Of a stretch of 64,000 nucleotides of DNA, positions 1,791-9,134 are shown piece by piece. Made by a program: the position numbers and the translations under genes. The stretch is from the NCBI RefSeq assembly GCF_009914755.1, contig NC_060934.1. One strand, given 5' to 3'. Position 1 is the first letter of the stretch, and each line of letters begins with the position of its first letter. Origin of the DNA: the human T2T-CHM13v2.0 reference genome, Homo sapiens. The notes under the pieces are model-generated. The model was not told where the DNA came from. It did no database searches and saw only the letters and a list, made by a program, of their open reading frames with translations.

Positions 1791-2482
1791 TTTCTTATTT
1801 ATTATTAATAAGATGTTAATTTTTTATGATTTCTGATTTATTGATTAGAAAACAACATTACCTTTGGAAAGGATTTATTGAAAATCATGAAGTTATATTA
1901 TTTAGAAAATAAAAGTTTGTATTAAAAAATTATACAACCAAAATATCGATAGTTACATACATTTGCTTTGACATGTTGTTCTTAATGGTTGCTTCACATG
2001 AAATAATTAAGTGATCTCAAAACTCTGCACACAAGTGACTTAATTAAAACATATTGCTACCTAAGGAATAAGGAATCCGTTATTTCATCACTATCATAGT
2101 CTTGACAATCTCAATAATTTTAGACCCTATAAATGTTTCCTTGAATCTCAAGACAGAAGATGATGTGATGGATGAAATATCATCTTTCTTGCTGATGAGA
2201 AGGAACTAGATAATGTTTAAAAAATTATTCTTAAAATAGCAATCAAATCACAGAAACTGATGCAAAATAAAAATGAATGGATTAATTTTAAGAAATATTT
2301 AACATTAGGTTTGTAATTATTGATCCCCTACACAGTTATTGATCCATGTATATGAGCAAACAAATACATTGCCTTGATACTACTATAATAATTTAAATTA
2401 ATATCCTTTTTATAATAACTCCATTAACAAGTAAATAGAACATGGTAAGGATAAACCAGACTCTGTGCACCTCATTGATTAG

Positions 2483-2824
<342 letters not shown>

Positions 2825-2902
2825 TGTTTTCTCTTTTTCTCCACATTGAACAACCCACTCCAAACCTCCTTCCAACATGAGTTCTAACTAAATCATTTAT
2901 AA

Positions 2903-3347
<445 letters not shown>

Positions 3348-3515
3348 ACATTGGACATATTTCTAACTCGGAAAAGTTGCCCTATTAGTAGCTATTTTAA
3401 CTAACAACATTTCCTATTGTATTACTAACATTTCTTATACTATTAAATTTCTGTTGGAAGAAATATTTTTTGGTTATGTTTATGCGCTCAGAAGATGAAA
3501 GAATGGTAGATTGTA

Positions 3516-4820
3516 GCTCTCTCCCTCTCTCCCTCTCTCTCTCTCCCTTTCCCTCTCTCCCTCTCCCTCTCTTCCTCTCCCTTTCTCCCTCTCCCTCTCC
3601 CTCTCTCCCTCTCCCTCTCCCTCTCTTTCCACAGTCTCCCTCTGATGCCAAGCCGAAGCTGGACTGTACTGCTGCCATCTCAGCTCACTGCAACCTCCCT
3701 GCCTGATTCTCCTGCCTCAGCCTGCCCAGTGCCTGCGATTGCAGGCGCGCGCGCCGCCATGCCTGACTGGTTTTTGTATTTTTTTTTTGGTGGAGACGGG
3801 GTTTCGCTGTGTTGGCCGGGCTGGTCTCCAACTCCTAACCGCGAGTGATCTGCCAGCCTCGGCCTCCCGAGGTGCCGGGATTGCAGACGGAGTCTCGTTC
3901 ACTCAATGCTCAATGTTGCCCAGGCTGGAGTGCAGTGGCATGATCTCGGCTAGCTACAACCTCCACCTCCCAGCCGCCTGCCTTGGCCTCCCAAAGTGCC
4001 GAGATTGCAGCCTCTGCCCGGCCGCCACCCCGTCTGGGAAGTGAGGAGCGTCTCTGCCTGGCCGCCCATCGTCTGAGATGTGAGGAGCCCCTCTGCCCGG
4101 CAGCCGCCCCGTCTGGGAAGTGAGGAGCGTCTCCGCCCAGCAGCCGCCCCATCCAGGAGAGAGGTGGGGGGCAGCCCCCGCCCGGCCAGCCACCCCGTCC
4201 GGGAGGGAGGTGGGGGCACCTCTGCCCGGCCGCCCCTTCTGGGAAGTGAGGAGCCCCTCTACCAGGCTGCTACCCCGTCTGGGAGGTGTACCCAACAGCT
4301 CATTGAGAACTGGCCATGATGACAATGGAGGTTTTGTCGAATAGAAAAGTGGGAAATGTGGGGAAAAGATAGAGAAATCAGATTGTTGCTGTGTCTGTGT
4401 AGAAAGAAGTAGACATGGGAGACGCCATTTTGTTCTGTACTAAGAAGAATTCTTCTGCCTTGGGATGCTGTTGATCTTTGACCTTACCCCCAACCCTGTG
4501 CTCTCTGAAATGTGCTGTGTCCATTCAGGGTTAAATGGATTAAGGGCGGTGCAAGATGTGCTTTGTTAAACAGATGCTTGAAGGCAGCATGCTCGTTAAG
4601 AGTCATCACCACTCCCTAATCTCAAGTACCCAGGGACACAAACACTGCGGAAGGCCGCAGGGTCCTCTGCCTAGGAAAACCAGAGACCTTTGTTCACTTG
4701 TTTATCTGCTGACCTTCCCTCCACTATTGTCCTATGACCCTGCCAAATCCCCCTCTGCGAGAAACACCCAAGTATGATCAATAAAAAAAAAAAAAAAGAA
4801 TAAAAAAATAAAAAAATAAA
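3516..4820 (+). mobile_element. SVA retrotransposon (older, probably B/C-like subfamily; short VNTR)
   Basis: (CCCTCT)n-like head 3516-3630; antisense Alu-like domain to ~4010; GC-rich VNTR units (ccccgtctgggaagtgaggagcg) ~4010-4290; SINE-R (HERV-K env/LTR-derived) to AATAAA 4780-4785; A-rich tail to ~4820. Confidence 0.97.
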
Positions 4821-4829
4821 TTCCTACTT

Positions 4830-5300
4830 TAAACTAATGATGAAAAAATGAAGACAATTCCAAATATGAGAAATGAAAAGAGACATACAAAGAGATATAC
4901 GAGACTTTTTTTATTTCGCAAAATGGTACATGTTAACTCTAAGTTGGAAAACATGGATCACTAAGTGATTTTGCGAAACAAACAATAAAATCATTAACAC
5001 AGAAGTTATACCAAAAATGCAAAGGAGACTTCCCACCTCTGCACAAAACAACAAAAGCACAAAAGTTGTTAGGCTGAGACATTTCAAAGTAAATTATTTT
5101 ATTACCTCAAGAAAAAGATCATATAAAAGCTATCAGTTCCAGGAAAGTTTCCAAAATGTTTAATCAAGTCAGCGTAAAATGATACCAAAATCTAGGAGAA
5201 AACGCGTAATAAAATAAAATGCTGCAAAAACAGAGTTCATCCTCAGTTATATCAGTAAAATATCCTAAATAACATTCTTGCCAGTAGAATGCAAAAACAG
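4830..5300 (+). mobile_element. Ancient L1M ORF2 fragment (inside the transduced segment)
   Basis: A-rich strand with degenerate L1 ORF2-like stretches (atgataccaaaatctagg; aaatatcctaaataacattcttgccagtagaat). Confidence 0.45.
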
Positions 5301-5384
5301 AGACAGAGTAAGAAAGGACACCGAGCAGGAGCCCACGAGGTTCACAGTAAGAAAACAAGTGGCTGAGCAGCCAGAGAGAAAGCA

Positions 5385-6420
5385 GCCCGGGGATTCTGCC
5401 ACGTGACGTGCGGTGGACCCAGCCGCAGGGACTGGGCACGCTGCCCGCCCTTCAGCCTTTCAGCCCCTCACCCGCGTCAGCCCCTCAGCCACCTCAGCCC
5501 CTCAGTCCCTTCAGCAGCGTCAACCGCCTTATCCCCTCGGCCCCTCAAGCCCCTCACCAGCCTCAGCCCCTCAGCCGCCTCAGCCCCTCAGGCGCCTCAG
5601 CCCCTCATCCCCTCAGCCCCTCACCAGCCTTAGCCCCTCAGCCGCCTCAGCCTCTCAGCCCCTCAGCCGCCTCTCAGCCCCTCAGCCGCCTCTCAGCCCC
5701 TCAGCCGCCTCAGCCCCTCAGCCCCTCAGCCGCCTCAGCCGCCTCAGCCCCTCAGCCCCTCAGCCGCCTCAGCCTGTCAGCCGCCCCCGCCGCCGTTAGC
5801 TCACCCGCCCGGCTGCCTTAGGGATTGGCGCTGCCCAGCGGGCTCCAGCGCAGGCTCCAGCTCAGCCTCCTGCCGGTTTTCCCACCGGTGGCTCCCGCCA
5901 CTGGCTCCTGGCCGCCGGCTGCTACCCGCGCTCCGTGGGCAGGGCCAGTCTGGGGAGCGGACACCGAGGGGCGCGGCGGGATGGCAGGCGGTGTCCAAAA
6001 GCCTCTGAAAGCCGCAGCCGGGGGCGAGTCGCTGACCGACCGGGAGGCCCCGATCTGTCCCAGCCAAGGCCTCCCGGCGCCATCACCCACCAGGAGTCCC
6101 GGGCGGGGTCATCGCTCCCTCCACGCTGTCGCGGGCTTCTGCCAGGCGGTGATCCGTGCCCAATGCCACCAAAGGGAAGCTTGTACCCAAGAGTGGGGGG
6201 AAATGCATCCTTCACGGGGATCTGAAAACTCCAGGTCCTCCTCCCAGGAGCCCACGGCCTCAGATGGGGCCCAGGACGCGCCCGCGCTGGGGAAGCGCCC
6301 CCTCCACCTGAGCCCGAAATTGTCCCTAACAAACCCAACACCCGCAGGGCTGAAGTTTGGGCTCCGGGGTGCGGTGTCCATGAAATGGGCACGGCGTGCT
6401 TTCCATGCAAAAGACACGAA
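5385..6420. promoter_or_regulatory. CpG-island-like GC-rich segment with promoter-type motifs
   Basis: Abrupt GC/CpG enrichment within an AT-rich window. E-box CACGTG 5400-5405 overlaps TGACGT 5404-5409; GC boxes CCGCCC 5781-5786 and 5805-5810; reverse CCAAT (ATTGG) 5824-5828; GGGCGGGG 6101-6108. Function is inferred only. Confidence 0.5.
5449..5775 (+). repeat. C-rich tandem array of 8-9 bp units (CTCAGCCC / CTCAGCCGC)
   Basis: Dozens of consecutive ctcagcccc/ctcagccgc units are directly visible. Confidence 0.95.
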
Positions 6421-6859
6421 GCCTGGAGTTTATGAAATTATTGAAGGAAAGCCGCGCCAGTGCCAAGAGATCATGGCCCAGAGCTGGCAGAACTGATCAG
6501 ACCAATGCTGAGCAAAAGGCCTGAAGAAGACCATCTGGAGGAGCATCCGGAGGGCTTTCCCCAAAGCACCAGATCGCCTTCCTTTCCGAGGCCACAAAGG
6601 CGAGAACCTCCAGAAATAGCATGAAACACTGTGACTTGGTGACATCCAAGCCTGCTGCTCCTCTGAGGCCTGAGCAAGACATCGATAGTGGGTGAAGGCA
6701 AGTGTTTGTCCCAGGAGAGGCCCAGGGTGGTTGGTCCCTTGAAGTCAGCCGCCAGTCTGAAGGCCCAGGGGACTTGAGCAATACCAAGAACTGGCCACGG
6801 TCAGTAGGGTAAATATTGACATCTTAGCTGCAGAAGGGAGGGATGCAGCGAGCGAGGGC
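5902..6859 (+). pseudogene. NEK4: Processed, 3'-truncated, multiply frameshifted pseudogene of NIMA-related kinase NEK4 (kinase domain plus the start of the C-terminal region); which annotated NEK4P locus it is cannot be determined here
   Basis: Collinear, intronless translated patches match NEK4 as I recall it: LLAAGCYPRSVGRAS~PLAAYCYLRVVGKGS; RRDGRR~RRDGKQ; LSQPRPPGAITHQES~LSQLKHPNIVTYKES; LHAVAGFC~LYIVMGFC; ILHGDLKT~ILHRDLKT; PLHLSPKL~PYYMSPEL; EVWAPGCGVHEMG~DVWALGCCVYEMA; AFHAKDTKPGVYEIIEGK~AFNAKDMNSLVYRIIEGK; PELAELIRPMLSKRPEE~PELAELIRTMLSKRPEE; GEGKCLSQE; VNIDILAAEGRDAASEG~VNIDILPAKGRDSVSDG. The start codon is lost and the frames switch repeatedly. Confidence 0.92.
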
Positions 6860-6967
6860 AGAGGCTGCAGTGAGCTGAGATCGCACCACTGCCCTCCAGC
6901 CTGGGCACAAGAGCGCGACTCCATCTCAAAAAAAAAGAAAACGAAAGAAAAAGAAAAGAGGAAGAAA
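6857..6967 (+). mobile_element. Alu right-arm 3' fragment with A-rich tail
   Basis: ggcagaggctgcagtgagctgagatcgcaccactgccctccagcctggg...gactccatctcaaaaaaaa. Confidence 0.9.
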
Positions 6968-7079
6968 GCAAATGTATTGTCTTCAGTGGTTTGAAATAAC
7001 AAAAGCTGATTGCCAAATACAGTATGTGAAATAACTCCTGCTTAAATTGTTTAAGAAAGAAATGATACAGGGCAAACAC

Positions 7080-7111
7080 AATAAATTAGTCTTGTGTGAA
7101 AAAAAAAAAAA
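7080..7111 (+). terminator. Polyadenylation signal and retroposed poly(A) ending the transduced RNA
   Basis: AATAAA 7080-7085, a 13-nt spacer, then an A-run from 7099 merging into the TSD. Confidence 0.85.
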
Positions 7112-8532
7112 GAATGGTAGATTGTATACCATTCAAACATTAGTACTTTGAAAGAACAATTGAACACCAATTAGGCAGAGTAGTCACATTTTAATATAAA
7201 AATTCATGTAGTAATAAGTTCCACTTTATAACCCTGGTCAAGAATCCAACATTCCTTGATGTCGCCTGAAAATTTCCACTATATTGCTTCAAATCCAACA
7301 TGAAAAAATTGTAAGTCCCTCTTGTGCTGACCTTCTCTTTTAAACTTGGGCTTCTCTCCTAAACTTGCCATGATATTAATTATTTCTGTTCATGTTTCTG
7401 TCAACATTCTGTTTTTAAATAAAACAGTGTAGATTTTTTTCAGCTTCTCACTCCTGTATTCTCAAATTAAGTTGAATCTATCAATTAAATAATGTTTCTC
7501 CAATTCCATAATTTATTTTCCTGCCTATAACTATGAGCATAAGAAATTTCTTCTAAAAAAAAGTTCCTTCTATATTCTAACTTAGACTTTAGAGTAGTCT
7601 TTAAATGGTTTTCCTATTGCCATTCCACATCTCTTCAATATTACTTAACACTATAAAATTATTTTCCCCTAAAACATAAAAACAATCCTATTAATATTTT
7701 GCATACCTGTCATTTACTCTTAATTGCTTATAGAAGAGAAAACAAATGTCTTTGATTACATATATGATTTTTATTTTCAACAAATAAAAACACATGCTTT
7801 TGCCTACTTTCCTAGACATATCTTTATAATTCAAGTTTTGAGTATATCTATATATGCACATGTGCAATCTGCTTAATAATTCATTGACTAAATGAGTAGA
7901 TGACTATTTTTTGGTATCTCTGTATTACATTAATTTTTAAATGACAAGCAAAAAATTATTTTATTCTGTGAAAAGAAGTGAGTTTTCAAATGTAGTCTAC
8001 TAGAATGTTAACAAAAGTGTATTGTTTTAAAAACAATAACTGAGTTATAGAATATAACTACCCAATCATTTTTCTGACTTTTAAACTGACCTCAGTAAGA
8101 AGAAACGTCAAAGAATCTTGGCAATATAATTTTACCACCTTTTTGGTTATTTTACTTCTGATACTTTGTGAGTTTTCTCATTTCTAATAAAATCCTCAAT
8201 CAGAAACTGCAGTAAATACCATTCATTTGCATTTTGATTAGTAATGATATTATCAAGTCCACCAAACCCTTTGTAGAATACAGTATTTGAATAATTATAA
8301 ACAATAAAGAGGCAGAAAAATGTACCCTATTAAGGTGTTTTTGATTGCCTTAATAGCTCACTATATTTCATTAACCTTTCATACAAGATCCTCTAACATA
8401 CATGTAGTAATATAGTAAATTACTCCCATGCATTTTTATTTATCCTGGTTATTGCTGTTATAGAAGAAGAATGAAATTTCATACAGTATAAAGACCTACT
8501 AGTAAACTCCATTTGCCCTCTCTCCTGATTAG

Positions 8533-8624
8533 TTCTACTTGAAATATAGACATATTGACTTGAAATATAGATATATTGACTTGAATATAGATATATTTCT
8601 ACTTGAAATATAGATATATTGACT
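8533..8624. repeat. Minisatellite, ~21-bp unit (gacttgaaatatagatatatt) x4
   Basis: Four near-identical copies are visible. Confidence 0.85.
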
Positions 8625-9134
8625 GCCTTGCAGTCAGTATAAACTTACCTTGTAAAACAGTTATCTTGCTTATTGTTCCTGTCTTTTTAGATTTTAAGGT
8701 TGAAATGATTTTCAACAAATGACAATTTAACTTAGAAATTCTTATCTGGAGATCATGGATGGTAAATGTTTCTTGAGCCCAATACAATTATAGAAACAAT
8801 TTTATATACATATGTGTATGTACATTTGACTTGAGAGGATTTGCACCATAGTCTTAAATATTCAAAGGTGCCTATGACTGGGAAATAACAATCACATATT
8901 TTTGCTAAAAAATGTTACACTTTAATTGTTATACTGATTATAGAAAGTTTCAACTTTTTAGTAGAACTCAGAAGTTATGTAACTGCTTTATATGGCTTTG
9001 AATATACTATTTAAATGAGTATTACTTGAGTTTTTTCTCTACTGAGTTGAGAAGAAATCACTATCAAGGAAACTTGGTAGAAAACATGAGAATGAGATTG
9101 TAGGGGAAAAGAAATAACAGAATATTTTATAAAA

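What the first reader, a model, noticed from the sequence alone, without database searches (positions are those of the whole stretch)
3498..7126. SVA 3' transduction re-mobilised a NEK4 retrocopy and a CpG island as one 3.6-kb unit
Seen: the 18-bp TSD aaagaatggtagattgta flanks the SVA 5' end (3498-3515). It reappears only at 7109-7126, after a second AATAAA and poly(A), 2.3 kb past the SVA's own tail (4780-4820). The cargo is L1M-like sequence, a C-rich repeat with promoter motifs, a NEK4 pseudogene and an Alu piece. Known: L1 ORF2p-driven TPRT of SVA read-through transcripts produces 3' transductions (e.g. the AMAC/SLC35G duplications). Inference: this is a retrocopy of a retrocopy. A source SVA sits upstream of an older NEK4 pseudogene elsewhere in the genome and exports it, so several NEK4 pseudogenes may be one SVA-transduction family rather than independent mRNA retroposition events.
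Basis: partly seen in the sequence, partly recalled or inferred. Interest (0 to 1): 0.9.

Follow-up and report, generated by a model that had tools for sequence, protein, structure and literature searches.

The report
SVA carrying chr17 DNA into chr10
A jumping element (SVA) landed on chromosome 10 carrying 2.3 kb of chromosome 17 DNA, including a dead copy of the NEK4 gene; this is a clean but ordinary example of a known mechanism.

Summary
An exact 18-bp target-site duplication (3498-3515, 7109-7126) brackets a full-length SVA (3516-4820) plus 2.28 kb of non-SVA DNA. That DNA ends in AATAAA (7080) and a short poly(A).

The cargo is a copy of a chr17 short-arm segmental duplication present three times in this genome. 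It is closest to C17:16.57 Mb, at 2.8% divergence outside the minisatellite. Homology starts at the end of the SVA tail and stops at the poly(A) site. On chr17 the sequence runs on in both directions, and the chr10 flanks are single-copy.

So this is one L1-mediated event, most likely a 3' read-through transduction. NEK4P3 is a retrocopy of a genomic NEK4 retrocopy, not an independent mRNA insertion.

- No chr17 copy carries an SVA at the junction, so the source element is absent from this assembly.
- No sibling insertions exist. The other NEK4-like copies are segmental duplicates (chr17, three copies) or unrelated (chr21).

SVA mobilisation of a processed pseudogene is already in print (CKS1BP, 2025). 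By-products: gene-conversion tracts among the chr17 copies that postdate the event, and a transplanted CpG island that has barely decayed.

The parts
3498..3515 (+). 5' target-site duplication AAAGAATGGTAGATTGTA
   Evidence: Exact 18-nt repeat, 2 copies in the window; 0 of 100 shuffles gave 2 or more (D13).
3516..3626 (+). One extra G, then the SVA 5' (CCCTCT)n-type hexamer array. The SVA is full length with no 5' transduction.
   Evidence: Sequence read; TRF rows 3517-3626.
3627..4009 (+). SVA Alu-like region (antisense Alu fragments)
   Evidence: Matches Alus in the chr17 loci at 69-87%, in the same orientation as the antisense Alu at 3040-3343; D6-D8.
4010..4288 (+). SVA VNTR, about 6.8 units of 40 bp
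   Evidence: TRF; D3 and D5.
4289..4779 (+). SVA SINE-R region
   Evidence: Window 4262-4782 matches SVA copies genome-wide. All 39 scored non-self hits are 96-97% identical. The boundary with the VNTR is approximate.
4780..4820 (+). SVA poly(A) signal and patterned A-rich tail (A15 G AATA7 TA7 TAAA). The last AATAAA (4815-4820) is shared with chr17, so the junction is ambiguous by 6 nt.
4821..7099 (+). Transduced chr17 sequence (cargo), closest to C17:16568080-16570338 (minus strand)
   Evidence: Divergence 53/1911 = 2.77% outside the minisatellite; 51 sites group chr10 with this copy.
4821..5384 (+). AT-rich part of an old low-copy block, 71% identical to chr1:188878971-188879520. On chr17 the block continues a further 1.8 kb upstream.
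   Evidence: No L1 domain found in Pfam.
5452..5785 (+). C-rich minisatellite, 17-mer TCAGCCCCTCAGCCGCC x 19; copy number differs between all four paralogues
   Evidence: TRF; alignment.
5331..6480 (+). CpG-island-like stretch (GC 0.68, CpG observed/expected 0.61)
5904..6859 (+). Truncated NEK4 processed pseudogene (NEK4P3), sense orientation. It retains 5' exons only, with no 3' end or poly(A) of its own.
   Evidence: Five collinear exon matches to chr3:52785066-52803651, 64-83% identity. Weak, sub-threshold Pkinase hit, E = 0.03. Hub annotation 5908-6859.
6857..6957 (+). 3' fragment of an Alu with A-rich tail, already present in the chr17 copies
7080..7085 (+). AATAAA used to end the read-through transcript; cleavage about 14 nt downstream
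   Evidence: chr17 continues ...GTCTTGTGTGA|cattttttgag with no poly(A).
7100..7108 (+). Untemplated poly(A) tail, 9 A, merging with the A's of the TSD
7109..7126 (+). 3' target-site duplication

Best explanation
This is a single L1-mediated retrotransposition of an SVA read-through transcript, i.e. a 3' transduction.

Inferred sequence of events: an SVA once sat in a chr17 short-arm segmental-duplication copy of the 16.57-Mb lineage, inserted at ...GGAATATTT|AATAAATTCC.... Transcription began at the SVA's own 5' end. It ran through the SVA's poly(A) signal and several further AATAAA hexamers. It ended 2.28 kb downstream at the AATAAA that is now window 7080. L1 ORF2p then copied that RNA into a nick at chr10, which created the 18-bp TSD.

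The cargo already held a truncated NEK4 processed pseudogene, a C-rich minisatellite, a CpG-rich stretch and an Alu fragment. All of these were carried along.

From 2.1-2.8% divergence, the event is roughly 10-13 million years old. That uses a recalled rate of about 1.1e-9 per site per year.

Shown: the single TSD pair, the exact homology boundaries, the chr17 origin and lineage, and the unique chr10 flanks. Inferred: the former existence of the source SVA, and the date.
For: 1. The exact 18-bp TSD encloses SVA plus cargo, and there are only two copies.
2. The SVA is full length with an extra 5' G, and its own AATAAA and tail are followed by a second AATAAA and poly(A).
3. Homology with chr17 begins at 4815-4821 and ends at 7099. 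On chr17 the sequence continues both ways without poly(A).
4. Both chr10 flanks are single-copy: 1 of 1 candidate each.
5. The chr17 junction reads TT|AATA, a 5 of 6 match to the L1 endonuclease site TT|AAAA. Only 1.3% of positions in the 10-kb locus (2.5% locally) score that well.
6. The internal SVA tail is patterned (G and T interruptions), as expected for a genomically encoded, aged tail. The terminal tail is pure A.
7. The chr10 copy groups with the 16.57-Mb copy at 51 sites, against 7 and 2 for the alternative groupings. Its divergence from that copy is uniform along the cargo: 2.4, 3.5, 2.7 and 2.05% in four segments.
8. The mechanism is established, and cases without an identifiable source element are in print (passages read in PMC9132208, and the Hoyt et al. 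preprint).
Against: - No source SVA exists in this assembly. There is no VNTR or SINE-R match in any of the three 10-kb chr17 loci, and the junctions there are seamless. There is no further copy of the cargo ends or of the chr17 flanks.
- The transcript must have bypassed the AATAAA hexamers at 4780, 4799, 4807, 4815, 4984, 5208 and 5213.
- The 6-nt AATAAA shared at the junction could equally be microhomology for a template switch.
- The 16.57-Mb copy today lacks the terminal AATAAA because of a 4-bp deletion. The hexamer must have been intact in the source.
- Neither the empty site in outgroups nor the date could be tested.
Confidence: 0.8

Rival explanations
1. Template-switch chimera. L1 ORF2p began reverse transcription on a polyadenylated RNA transcribed from the chr17 locus. 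At or near window 4821 it jumped to the 3' end of a separate SVA RNA and copied it to its 5' end. No source SVA on chr17 is then needed.
For: - No source SVA at any chr17 copy.
- 6-nt AATAAA microhomology at the junction.
- The same mechanism was proposed for the first SVA-CKS1BP copy (passages of PMC12593883).
- A single TSD pair fits this model too.
Against: - A complete 41-nt A-rich tail lies between the two parts. In the CKS1BP case the absence of such a tail was part of the argument.
- That tail is patterned with G and T interruptions, unlike a fresh RNA tail, while the terminal tail is pure A.
- The cargo is unspliced genomic DNA that begins in AT-rich sequence about 500 bp upstream of the CpG-rich part, not at an evident transcript start.
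- The breakpoint falls on a 5 of 6 L1 endonuclease site, which only 1.3-2.5% of positions reach.
Confidence: 0.12
2. Two separate insertions. The SVA and a chr17-derived retrocopy arrived at different times, one inserting next to or into the other.
For: There are two poly(A) signals and two A-rich tails.
Against: - Each event should leave its own TSD, but only one 18-bp pair exists and it encloses both parts.
- No third copy lies between SVA and cargo, even with 2 mismatches allowed.
- No other direct repeat flanks either part alone.
Confidence: 0.03
3. DNA-level segmental duplication from chr17 to chr10, landing by chance beside an SVA.
For: The chr17 donor region is itself segmentally duplicated. 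Identity of about 97% over more than 1 kb would meet the usual definition.
Against: - Homology stops exactly at the SVA tail and at a poly(A) site 14 nt after AATAAA.
- An untemplated A-run and the TSD follow.
- The chr10 flanks are unique.
Confidence: 0.02

Closest known systems
SVA 3' transductions, e.g. the AMAC1/SLC35G gene copies (Xing et al. 2006, recalled and not readable here; SLC35G4 example in the Hoyt et al. preprint, passage read)
   Same: An SVA with its own tail, then flanking DNA ending at a downstream poly(A) site, all inside one TSD. The transfer is between chromosomes, and kilobase-scale cargo carries gene-derived sequence.
   Different: Here there is only one offspring and no surviving source SVA in the assembly. 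The cargo is non-coding: a truncated pseudogene, a minisatellite and a CpG-rich stretch.
SVA-mobilised CKS1BP processed pseudogenes (CKS1BP2, CKS1BP3 and a non-reference copy; PMC12593883, passages read)
   Same: A processed pseudogene travels as part of an SVA 3' cargo.
   Different: - CKS1BP: near full-length pseudogene; first joined to the SVA by a proposed template switch with no poly(A) between; then three human-specific SVA-linked copies.
- NEK4P3: a truncated fragment embedded in genomic flanks; a full tail lies between SVA and cargo; one copy only; older, at about 2-3% divergence.
SVA with a 3' transduction inside the lcr16a core duplicon, whose source element could not be found (PMC9132208, passage read)
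   Same: An SVA transduction connected with segmental duplications, and no source element identifiable in the reference genome.
   Different: There the SVA+cargo inserted into a duplicon and spread with it. Here the duplicon is the donor and the offspring sits in single-copy DNA.

Membership tests
L1-mediated SVA 3' transduction | SVA with canonical parts and its own poly(A) signal and tail | tested here: met
L1-mediated SVA 3' transduction | Non-SVA sequence directly after the SVA tail, ending in a second poly(A) signal and an untemplated A tail | tested here: met
   AATAAA at 7080 and A-run 7099-7111. chr17 has no A-run there.
L1-mediated SVA 3' transduction | One target-site duplication enclosing SVA plus cargo | tested here: met
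   18 of 18 nt identical, only two copies.
L1-mediated SVA 3' transduction | Cargo maps to another locus, where the sequence continues beyond the cargo's 3' end | tested here: met
   Three chr17 loci; continuation shown at two of them, the third being truncated earlier.
L1-mediated SVA 3' transduction | Extant source SVA immediately upstream of the cargo at the donor locus. This is corroborating rather than defining: published cases lack it. | tested here: not met
   No VNTR or SINE-R match in the three 10-kb chr17 loci. Seamless junctions. No extra copies of the cargo or its flanks.
L1-mediated SVA 3' transduction | Empty pre-integration site in outgroup species | not testable with these tools
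   No primate genomes are held. The chr10 flanks have no paralogue that could stand in.
RT template-switch chimeric retrocopy (SVA-CKS1BP type) | No poly(A) tail between the two parts, and a 3' part that is a spliced, 5'-truncated mRNA | tested here: not met
   A 41-nt A-rich tail lies at 4780-4820. The cargo is unspliced chr17 genomic DNA: 1.09 kb lies upstream of the NEK4 part and 240 bp downstream of it.
Independent NEK4 processed pseudogene (direct mRNA retrocopy at chr10) | Homology limited to the mRNA, with its own poly(A) at the mRNA 3' end and its own TSD | tested here: not met
   The NEK4 part ends at 6859 in an Alu fragment. Homology to chr17 extends far beyond it on both sides.
Segmental duplication | DNA-level copy whose ends are unrelated to poly(A) sites or TSDs | tested here: not met
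   The ends coincide with the SVA tail and with a poly(A) site plus TSD.

The most novel reading that the evidence does not exclude
The transplanted CpG-rich stretch may have kept itself free of germline methylation at its new gene-desert site for about 10 million years. It would then behave as an autonomous, possibly promoter-active, orphan CpG island delivered by an SVA.

Basis: of 69 CpGs in the island part of the 16.57-Mb chr17 copy, 59 are intact on chr10 and only 2 read TG or CA. A rough model with a 10-15-fold CpG transition rate predicts 13-19% loss. CpG observed/expected is still 0.61, against 0.70 on chr17.

Separately, the chr10 copy works as a dated outgroup. It shows that two tracts (window 4871-5368 and 6170-6802) were homogenised among the chr17 paralogues after the transduction.
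Probability: 0.35. Interest if true: 0.45.

Novelty: new member of a known kind. Interest (0 to 1): 0.3.

Why it matters
Counts of 'independent' processed pseudogenes can be inflated. Of the NEK4-like copies seen here, three are segmental duplicates and one rode on an SVA.

The chr10 copy escaped concerted evolution. It therefore gives a dated snapshot of one chr17 short-arm duplicon. From recall, that region is the 17p11.2-p12 low-copy-repeat area prone to rearrangement. The snapshot exposes later gene conversion among the chr17 copies.

The locus is also a natural experiment on whether a CpG island keeps its character when moved to a gene desert.

None of this changes what is known about the mechanism.

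Tried and rejected
- Source SVA: searched with the whole cargo, both cargo ends and both chr17 flanks. Only the same three chr17 loci and an ancient chr1 paralogue appear.
- SVA relatives near the donor: among the 39 scored non-self SINE-R matches, the chr17 hits lie at 47.18, 47.40 and 65.74 Mb, none near the donor loci.
- Splicing as the cause of the 57 bp missing at 6656/6657 relative to chr17: no GT-AG in any register, and a gct microhomology. It is a plain deletion.
- 'L1M-like' identity of the AT-rich part: Pfam scans of its open frames and of 12 frames from the chr17 upstream extension gave no L1 domain.
- Rfam scan of 3300-7300: only a sub-threshold, Alu-derived mir-3135 match.
- The excess of chr10-specific changes (30 against 8) as a sign of a faster chr10 lineage or a different source. 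Rejected because the excess sits in the two converted tracts. Outside them the counts are 7 against 6, and chr10-to-16.57-Mb divergence is uniform.
- SVA subfamily: not assigned, because no consensus library is held. One hint: a 96% SINE-R match at C18:11771216-11771736 lies just before an offspring locus that Hoyt et al. ascribe to an SVA_C transduction.
- Literature: Xing et al. 2006 is not held, and bioRxiv supplements are closed. I could not see whether this locus is already listed in the catalogues.
Full report
**1. Observation**

The 18-nt string AAAGAATGGTAGATTGTA occurs exactly twice in the window, at 3498-3515 and 7109-7126, even when two mismatches are allowed. The expected count is 0.01, and none of 100 shuffles gave two matches (pair D13).

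The SVA lies between the two copies:
- one extra G (3516) and a CT-rich hexamer array (3517-3626);
- an Alu-like part;
- a 40-bp VNTR of 6.8 units (4010-4288);
- SINE-R;
- AATAAA at 4780 and an A-rich tail to 4820.

The SINE-R part matches SVA copies all over the genome at 96-97% (1865 candidates, 40 scored).

After the tail come 2.28 kb of non-SVA DNA, an AATAAA at 7080, a cleavage point about 14 nt later and a short A-run that merges with the 3' repeat.

**2. Where the cargo comes from**

A search of the window's own genome with 4821-7098 found three chr17 loci besides the window itself: C17:16.568-16.570 Mb, 15.655-15.657 Mb and 18.581-18.583 Mb (1752 candidates, 40 scored). BLAST of window 2000-9000 against 10 kb around each locus gave two results:
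- Homology runs from 4815 to 7099. At the 18.58-Mb copy it runs only to 6802, where that copy breaks off.
- Nothing in those loci matches the VNTR or SINE-R (window 4011-4814).

At the junctions chr17 reads ...ggaatattt|AATAAATTCCTAC... and ...GTCTTGTGTGA|cattttttgag.... The sequence continues both ways with no SVA and no poly(A).

The three chr17 copies are segmental duplicates of one another across nearly all of the 10 kb fetched for each, at 90.5-98%.

Both chr10 flanks (3345-3515 and 7109-7500) are single-copy in the genome.

**3. Which chr17 copy**

The four sequences were aligned in 2376 columns. Site patterns:

| Grouping | Sites |
|---|---|
| chr10 + 16.57 Mb against the other two | 51 |
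| chr10 + 18.58 Mb against the other two | 7 |
| chr10 + 15.66 Mb against the other two | 2 |

Outside the minisatellite, chr10 differs from the 16.57-Mb copy at 53 of 1911 sites: 2.77%, K2P 2.83%. Excluding CpG sites it is 36 of 1692, or 2.13%.

That divergence is uniform along the cargo: 2.4, 3.5, 2.7 and 2.05% in four segments. With a recalled neutral rate near 1.1e-9 per site per year, the split is roughly 10-13 million years old. This date is an inference.

**4. Gene conversion on chr17 after the event**

The 51 grouping sites all lie in 4826-4870 and 5369-6169. None lies in 4871-5368 or 6170-6802. Those two tracts hold 23 of the 30 'chr10 alone' sites and all 7 'chr10 + 18.58 Mb' sites.

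| Segment | 16.57 Mb vs 15.66 Mb copy | chr10 vs 16.57 Mb copy |
|---|---|---|
| Tract 4871-5368 | 0.2% | 2.4% |
| Tract 6170-6802 | 0.9% | 3.5% |
| Unconverted parts of 4821-6169 | 12.7% | 2.7% |
| Tail 6803-7099 | 8.9% | 2.05% |

A sliding window over the wider chr17 alignment shows the same mosaic, with 4-8% divergence in most of the 3 kb upstream.

The simplest reading is that these two tracts were homogenised among the chr17 paralogues after the transduction. The chr10 copy, on another chromosome, escaped. This also explains the apparent excess of chr10-specific changes (30 against 8). Outside the tracts the counts are 7 against 6.

**5. No source, no siblings**

Searches with the cargo's first 580 bp, its last 141 bp, the 500 bp upstream of the chr17 junction and the 400 bp downstream of the chr17 end each returned the same short set of places:
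- the chr10 copy, for the two cargo pieces;
- two or three of the three chr17 loci;
- an ancient paralogue at chr1:188.88 Mb (72-79% identity);
- two 40-45-nt chance-level hits.

So this assembly holds no chr17-type copy with an SVA and no second SVA+cargo insertion. The source element is lost, unsampled, or never existed.

**6. Mechanism**

One TSD pair around both parts, with no third copy between them, rules out two separate insertions. Two single-event models remain.

*Read-through 3' transduction* from a source SVA at the chr17 junction is favoured, for four reasons:
- The chr17 junction TT|AATA matches the L1 endonuclease site TT|AAAA at 5 of 6 positions. Only 1.3% of positions in the locus, and 2.5% locally, do as well.
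- A complete tail separates SVA and cargo.
- That tail is patterned with G and T interruptions, like an aged genomic tail. The terminal tail is pure A.
- The cargo is unspliced genomic DNA that starts in AT-rich sequence, not at an evident transcript start.

*Template switching* from a chr17 RNA to an SVA RNA needs no source SVA and could use the shared AATAAA as microhomology. It has been proposed for the first SVA-CKS1BP copy, but there the lack of a tail between the parts was part of the argument (PMC12593883, passages).

I put transduction at about 0.8 and template switch at about 0.12.

Points against transduction:
- No source element is present in the assembly.
- Seven AATAAA hexamers must have been bypassed.
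- The terminal AATAAA is now broken by a 4-bp deletion in the 16.57-Mb copy.

**7. What the cargo contains**

- *4821-5384.* This is the end of an old low-copy block. On chr17 the block extends another 1.8 kb upstream and resumes after the Alu fragment. Its only other relative is chr1:188.877-188.883 Mb, at 70-72%. Pfam scans found no L1 domain, so 'L1M-like' is unverified.
- *5452-5785.* A 17-mer minisatellite whose copy number differs in all four paralogues.
- *5904-6859.* Five collinear matches to NEK4 exons on chr3 at 64-83% identity: window 5904-5997, 6002-6192, 6350-6451, 6457-6599 and 6690-6859. There is also one sub-threshold Pkinase hit. This is a processed pseudogene that keeps only 5' exons. 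It ends in an Alu fragment (6857-6957) that is already present on chr17.
- *Differences from chr17.* chr10 lacks 57 bp at 6656/6657 (gct microhomology, no GT-AG) and has a 12-bp tandem duplication at 5851-5862.

The wider idea of a NEK4 'SVA family' does not hold:
- the chr17 copies are segmental duplicates without an SVA;
- a chr21 fragment at 15.566 Mb (73-75% identity) matches only the NEK4 part of the query.

**8. CpG-rich stretch**

Window 5331-6480 has GC 0.68 and CpG observed/expected 0.61. The 16.57-Mb copy has 0.70. In the island part, 59 of 69 CpGs of the 16.57-Mb copy are intact on chr10, and only 2 read TG or CA. Seven are transversion-type differences and one is a gap.

A rough model with recalled rates, using a 10-15-fold CpG transition rate, predicts 13-19% loss on a methylated lineage. 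This hints that the island stayed unmethylated in the germline after transplantation. The numbers are small and no methylation data were available, so it is a lead only.

**9. What is known**

SVA 3' transduction is textbook. Passages read in the Hoyt et al. preprint give 55 highest-confidence SVA 3' transductions in CHM13 and the SLC35G4 example. SVA mobilisation of a processed pseudogene family is described for CKS1BP (PMC12593883, passages). A transduction whose source could not be identified is described for lcr16a (PMC9132208, passage).

Searches for this locus found nothing relevant:
- 'SVA + transduction + NEK4' gave 6 papers, judged unrelated from their titles and abstracts.
- 'NEK4P3' gave 0 papers.
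- 'NEK4P1 / NEK4P2 / NEK4 pseudogene' gave 2 papers, judged unrelated from their titles and abstracts.
- The two supplementary files held as text for PMC12593883 contain no NEK4.

Xing et al. 2006 is not held and bioRxiv supplements are closed. The locus may already sit in those catalogues.

**10. Verdict**

This is a real, cleanly resolved SVA-borne transfer of 2.28 kb from a chr17 duplicon to chr10. It is a new or unremarked member of a known kind. Interest is low to moderate. It rests on the by-products: the orphaned offspring, the dated view of conversion among the chr17 copies, and the little-decayed CpG island.

Noticed in passing
window 3039-3364: A 16-nt exact direct repeat, CATTGGACATATTTCT, at 3039-3054 and 3349-3364 brackets the antisense Alu at about 3055-3348. 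This is an ordinary Alu insertion with its TSD, 150 bp upstream of the SVA (D14).
   Followed up: no
L011/L012/L013 (C17:16.57, 15.66, 18.58 Mb), equivalent to window 4871-5368 and 6170-6802: Two tracts where the three chr17 paralogues differ by only 0.2-1.7% while neighbouring sequence differs by 5-13%. The chr10 copy stands outside all three. This is a gene-conversion mosaic that postdates the transduction.
   Followed up: partly
L014 (C1:188875000-188884999): An ancient paralogue (70-72%) of the chr17 block. It covers 2.3 kb ending in the cargo's AT-rich part, and resumes at the cargo's last 150 bp and beyond. In place of the minisatellite, NEK4 part and Alu it has about 1.48 kb of unrelated sequence. 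It may mark the state before the NEK4 retrocopy arrived.
   Followed up: partly
G000:C21:15565758-15566366 (minus strand): Two collinear matches (73-75%) to the NEK4 part of the cargo only. This is an independent NEK4-like fragment on chr21 without the chr17 flanks.
   Followed up: no
L011, equivalent to window 7080-7089: The 16.57-Mb chr17 copy has a 4-bp deletion that destroys the AATAAA used by the read-through transcript. The 15.66-Mb copy keeps it.
   Followed up: no
L013 position 5793 (C17:18.5828 Mb), equivalent to window 6802: The 18.58-Mb copy loses homology abruptly inside the NEK4 part and continues with unrelated GC-rich sequence. This is a duplication boundary or a deletion.
   Followed up: no
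window 5331-6480: The transplanted CpG-rich stretch still meets the usual CpG-island composition. Only 2 of 69 CpGs of the closest chr17 copy read TG or CA on chr10.
   Followed up: partly
window 6851-6907 (minus strand): Sub-threshold Rfam match to mir-3135 (32.7 bits against a gathering score of 80), lying in the Alu fragment. Most likely just Alu sequence.
   Followed up: no
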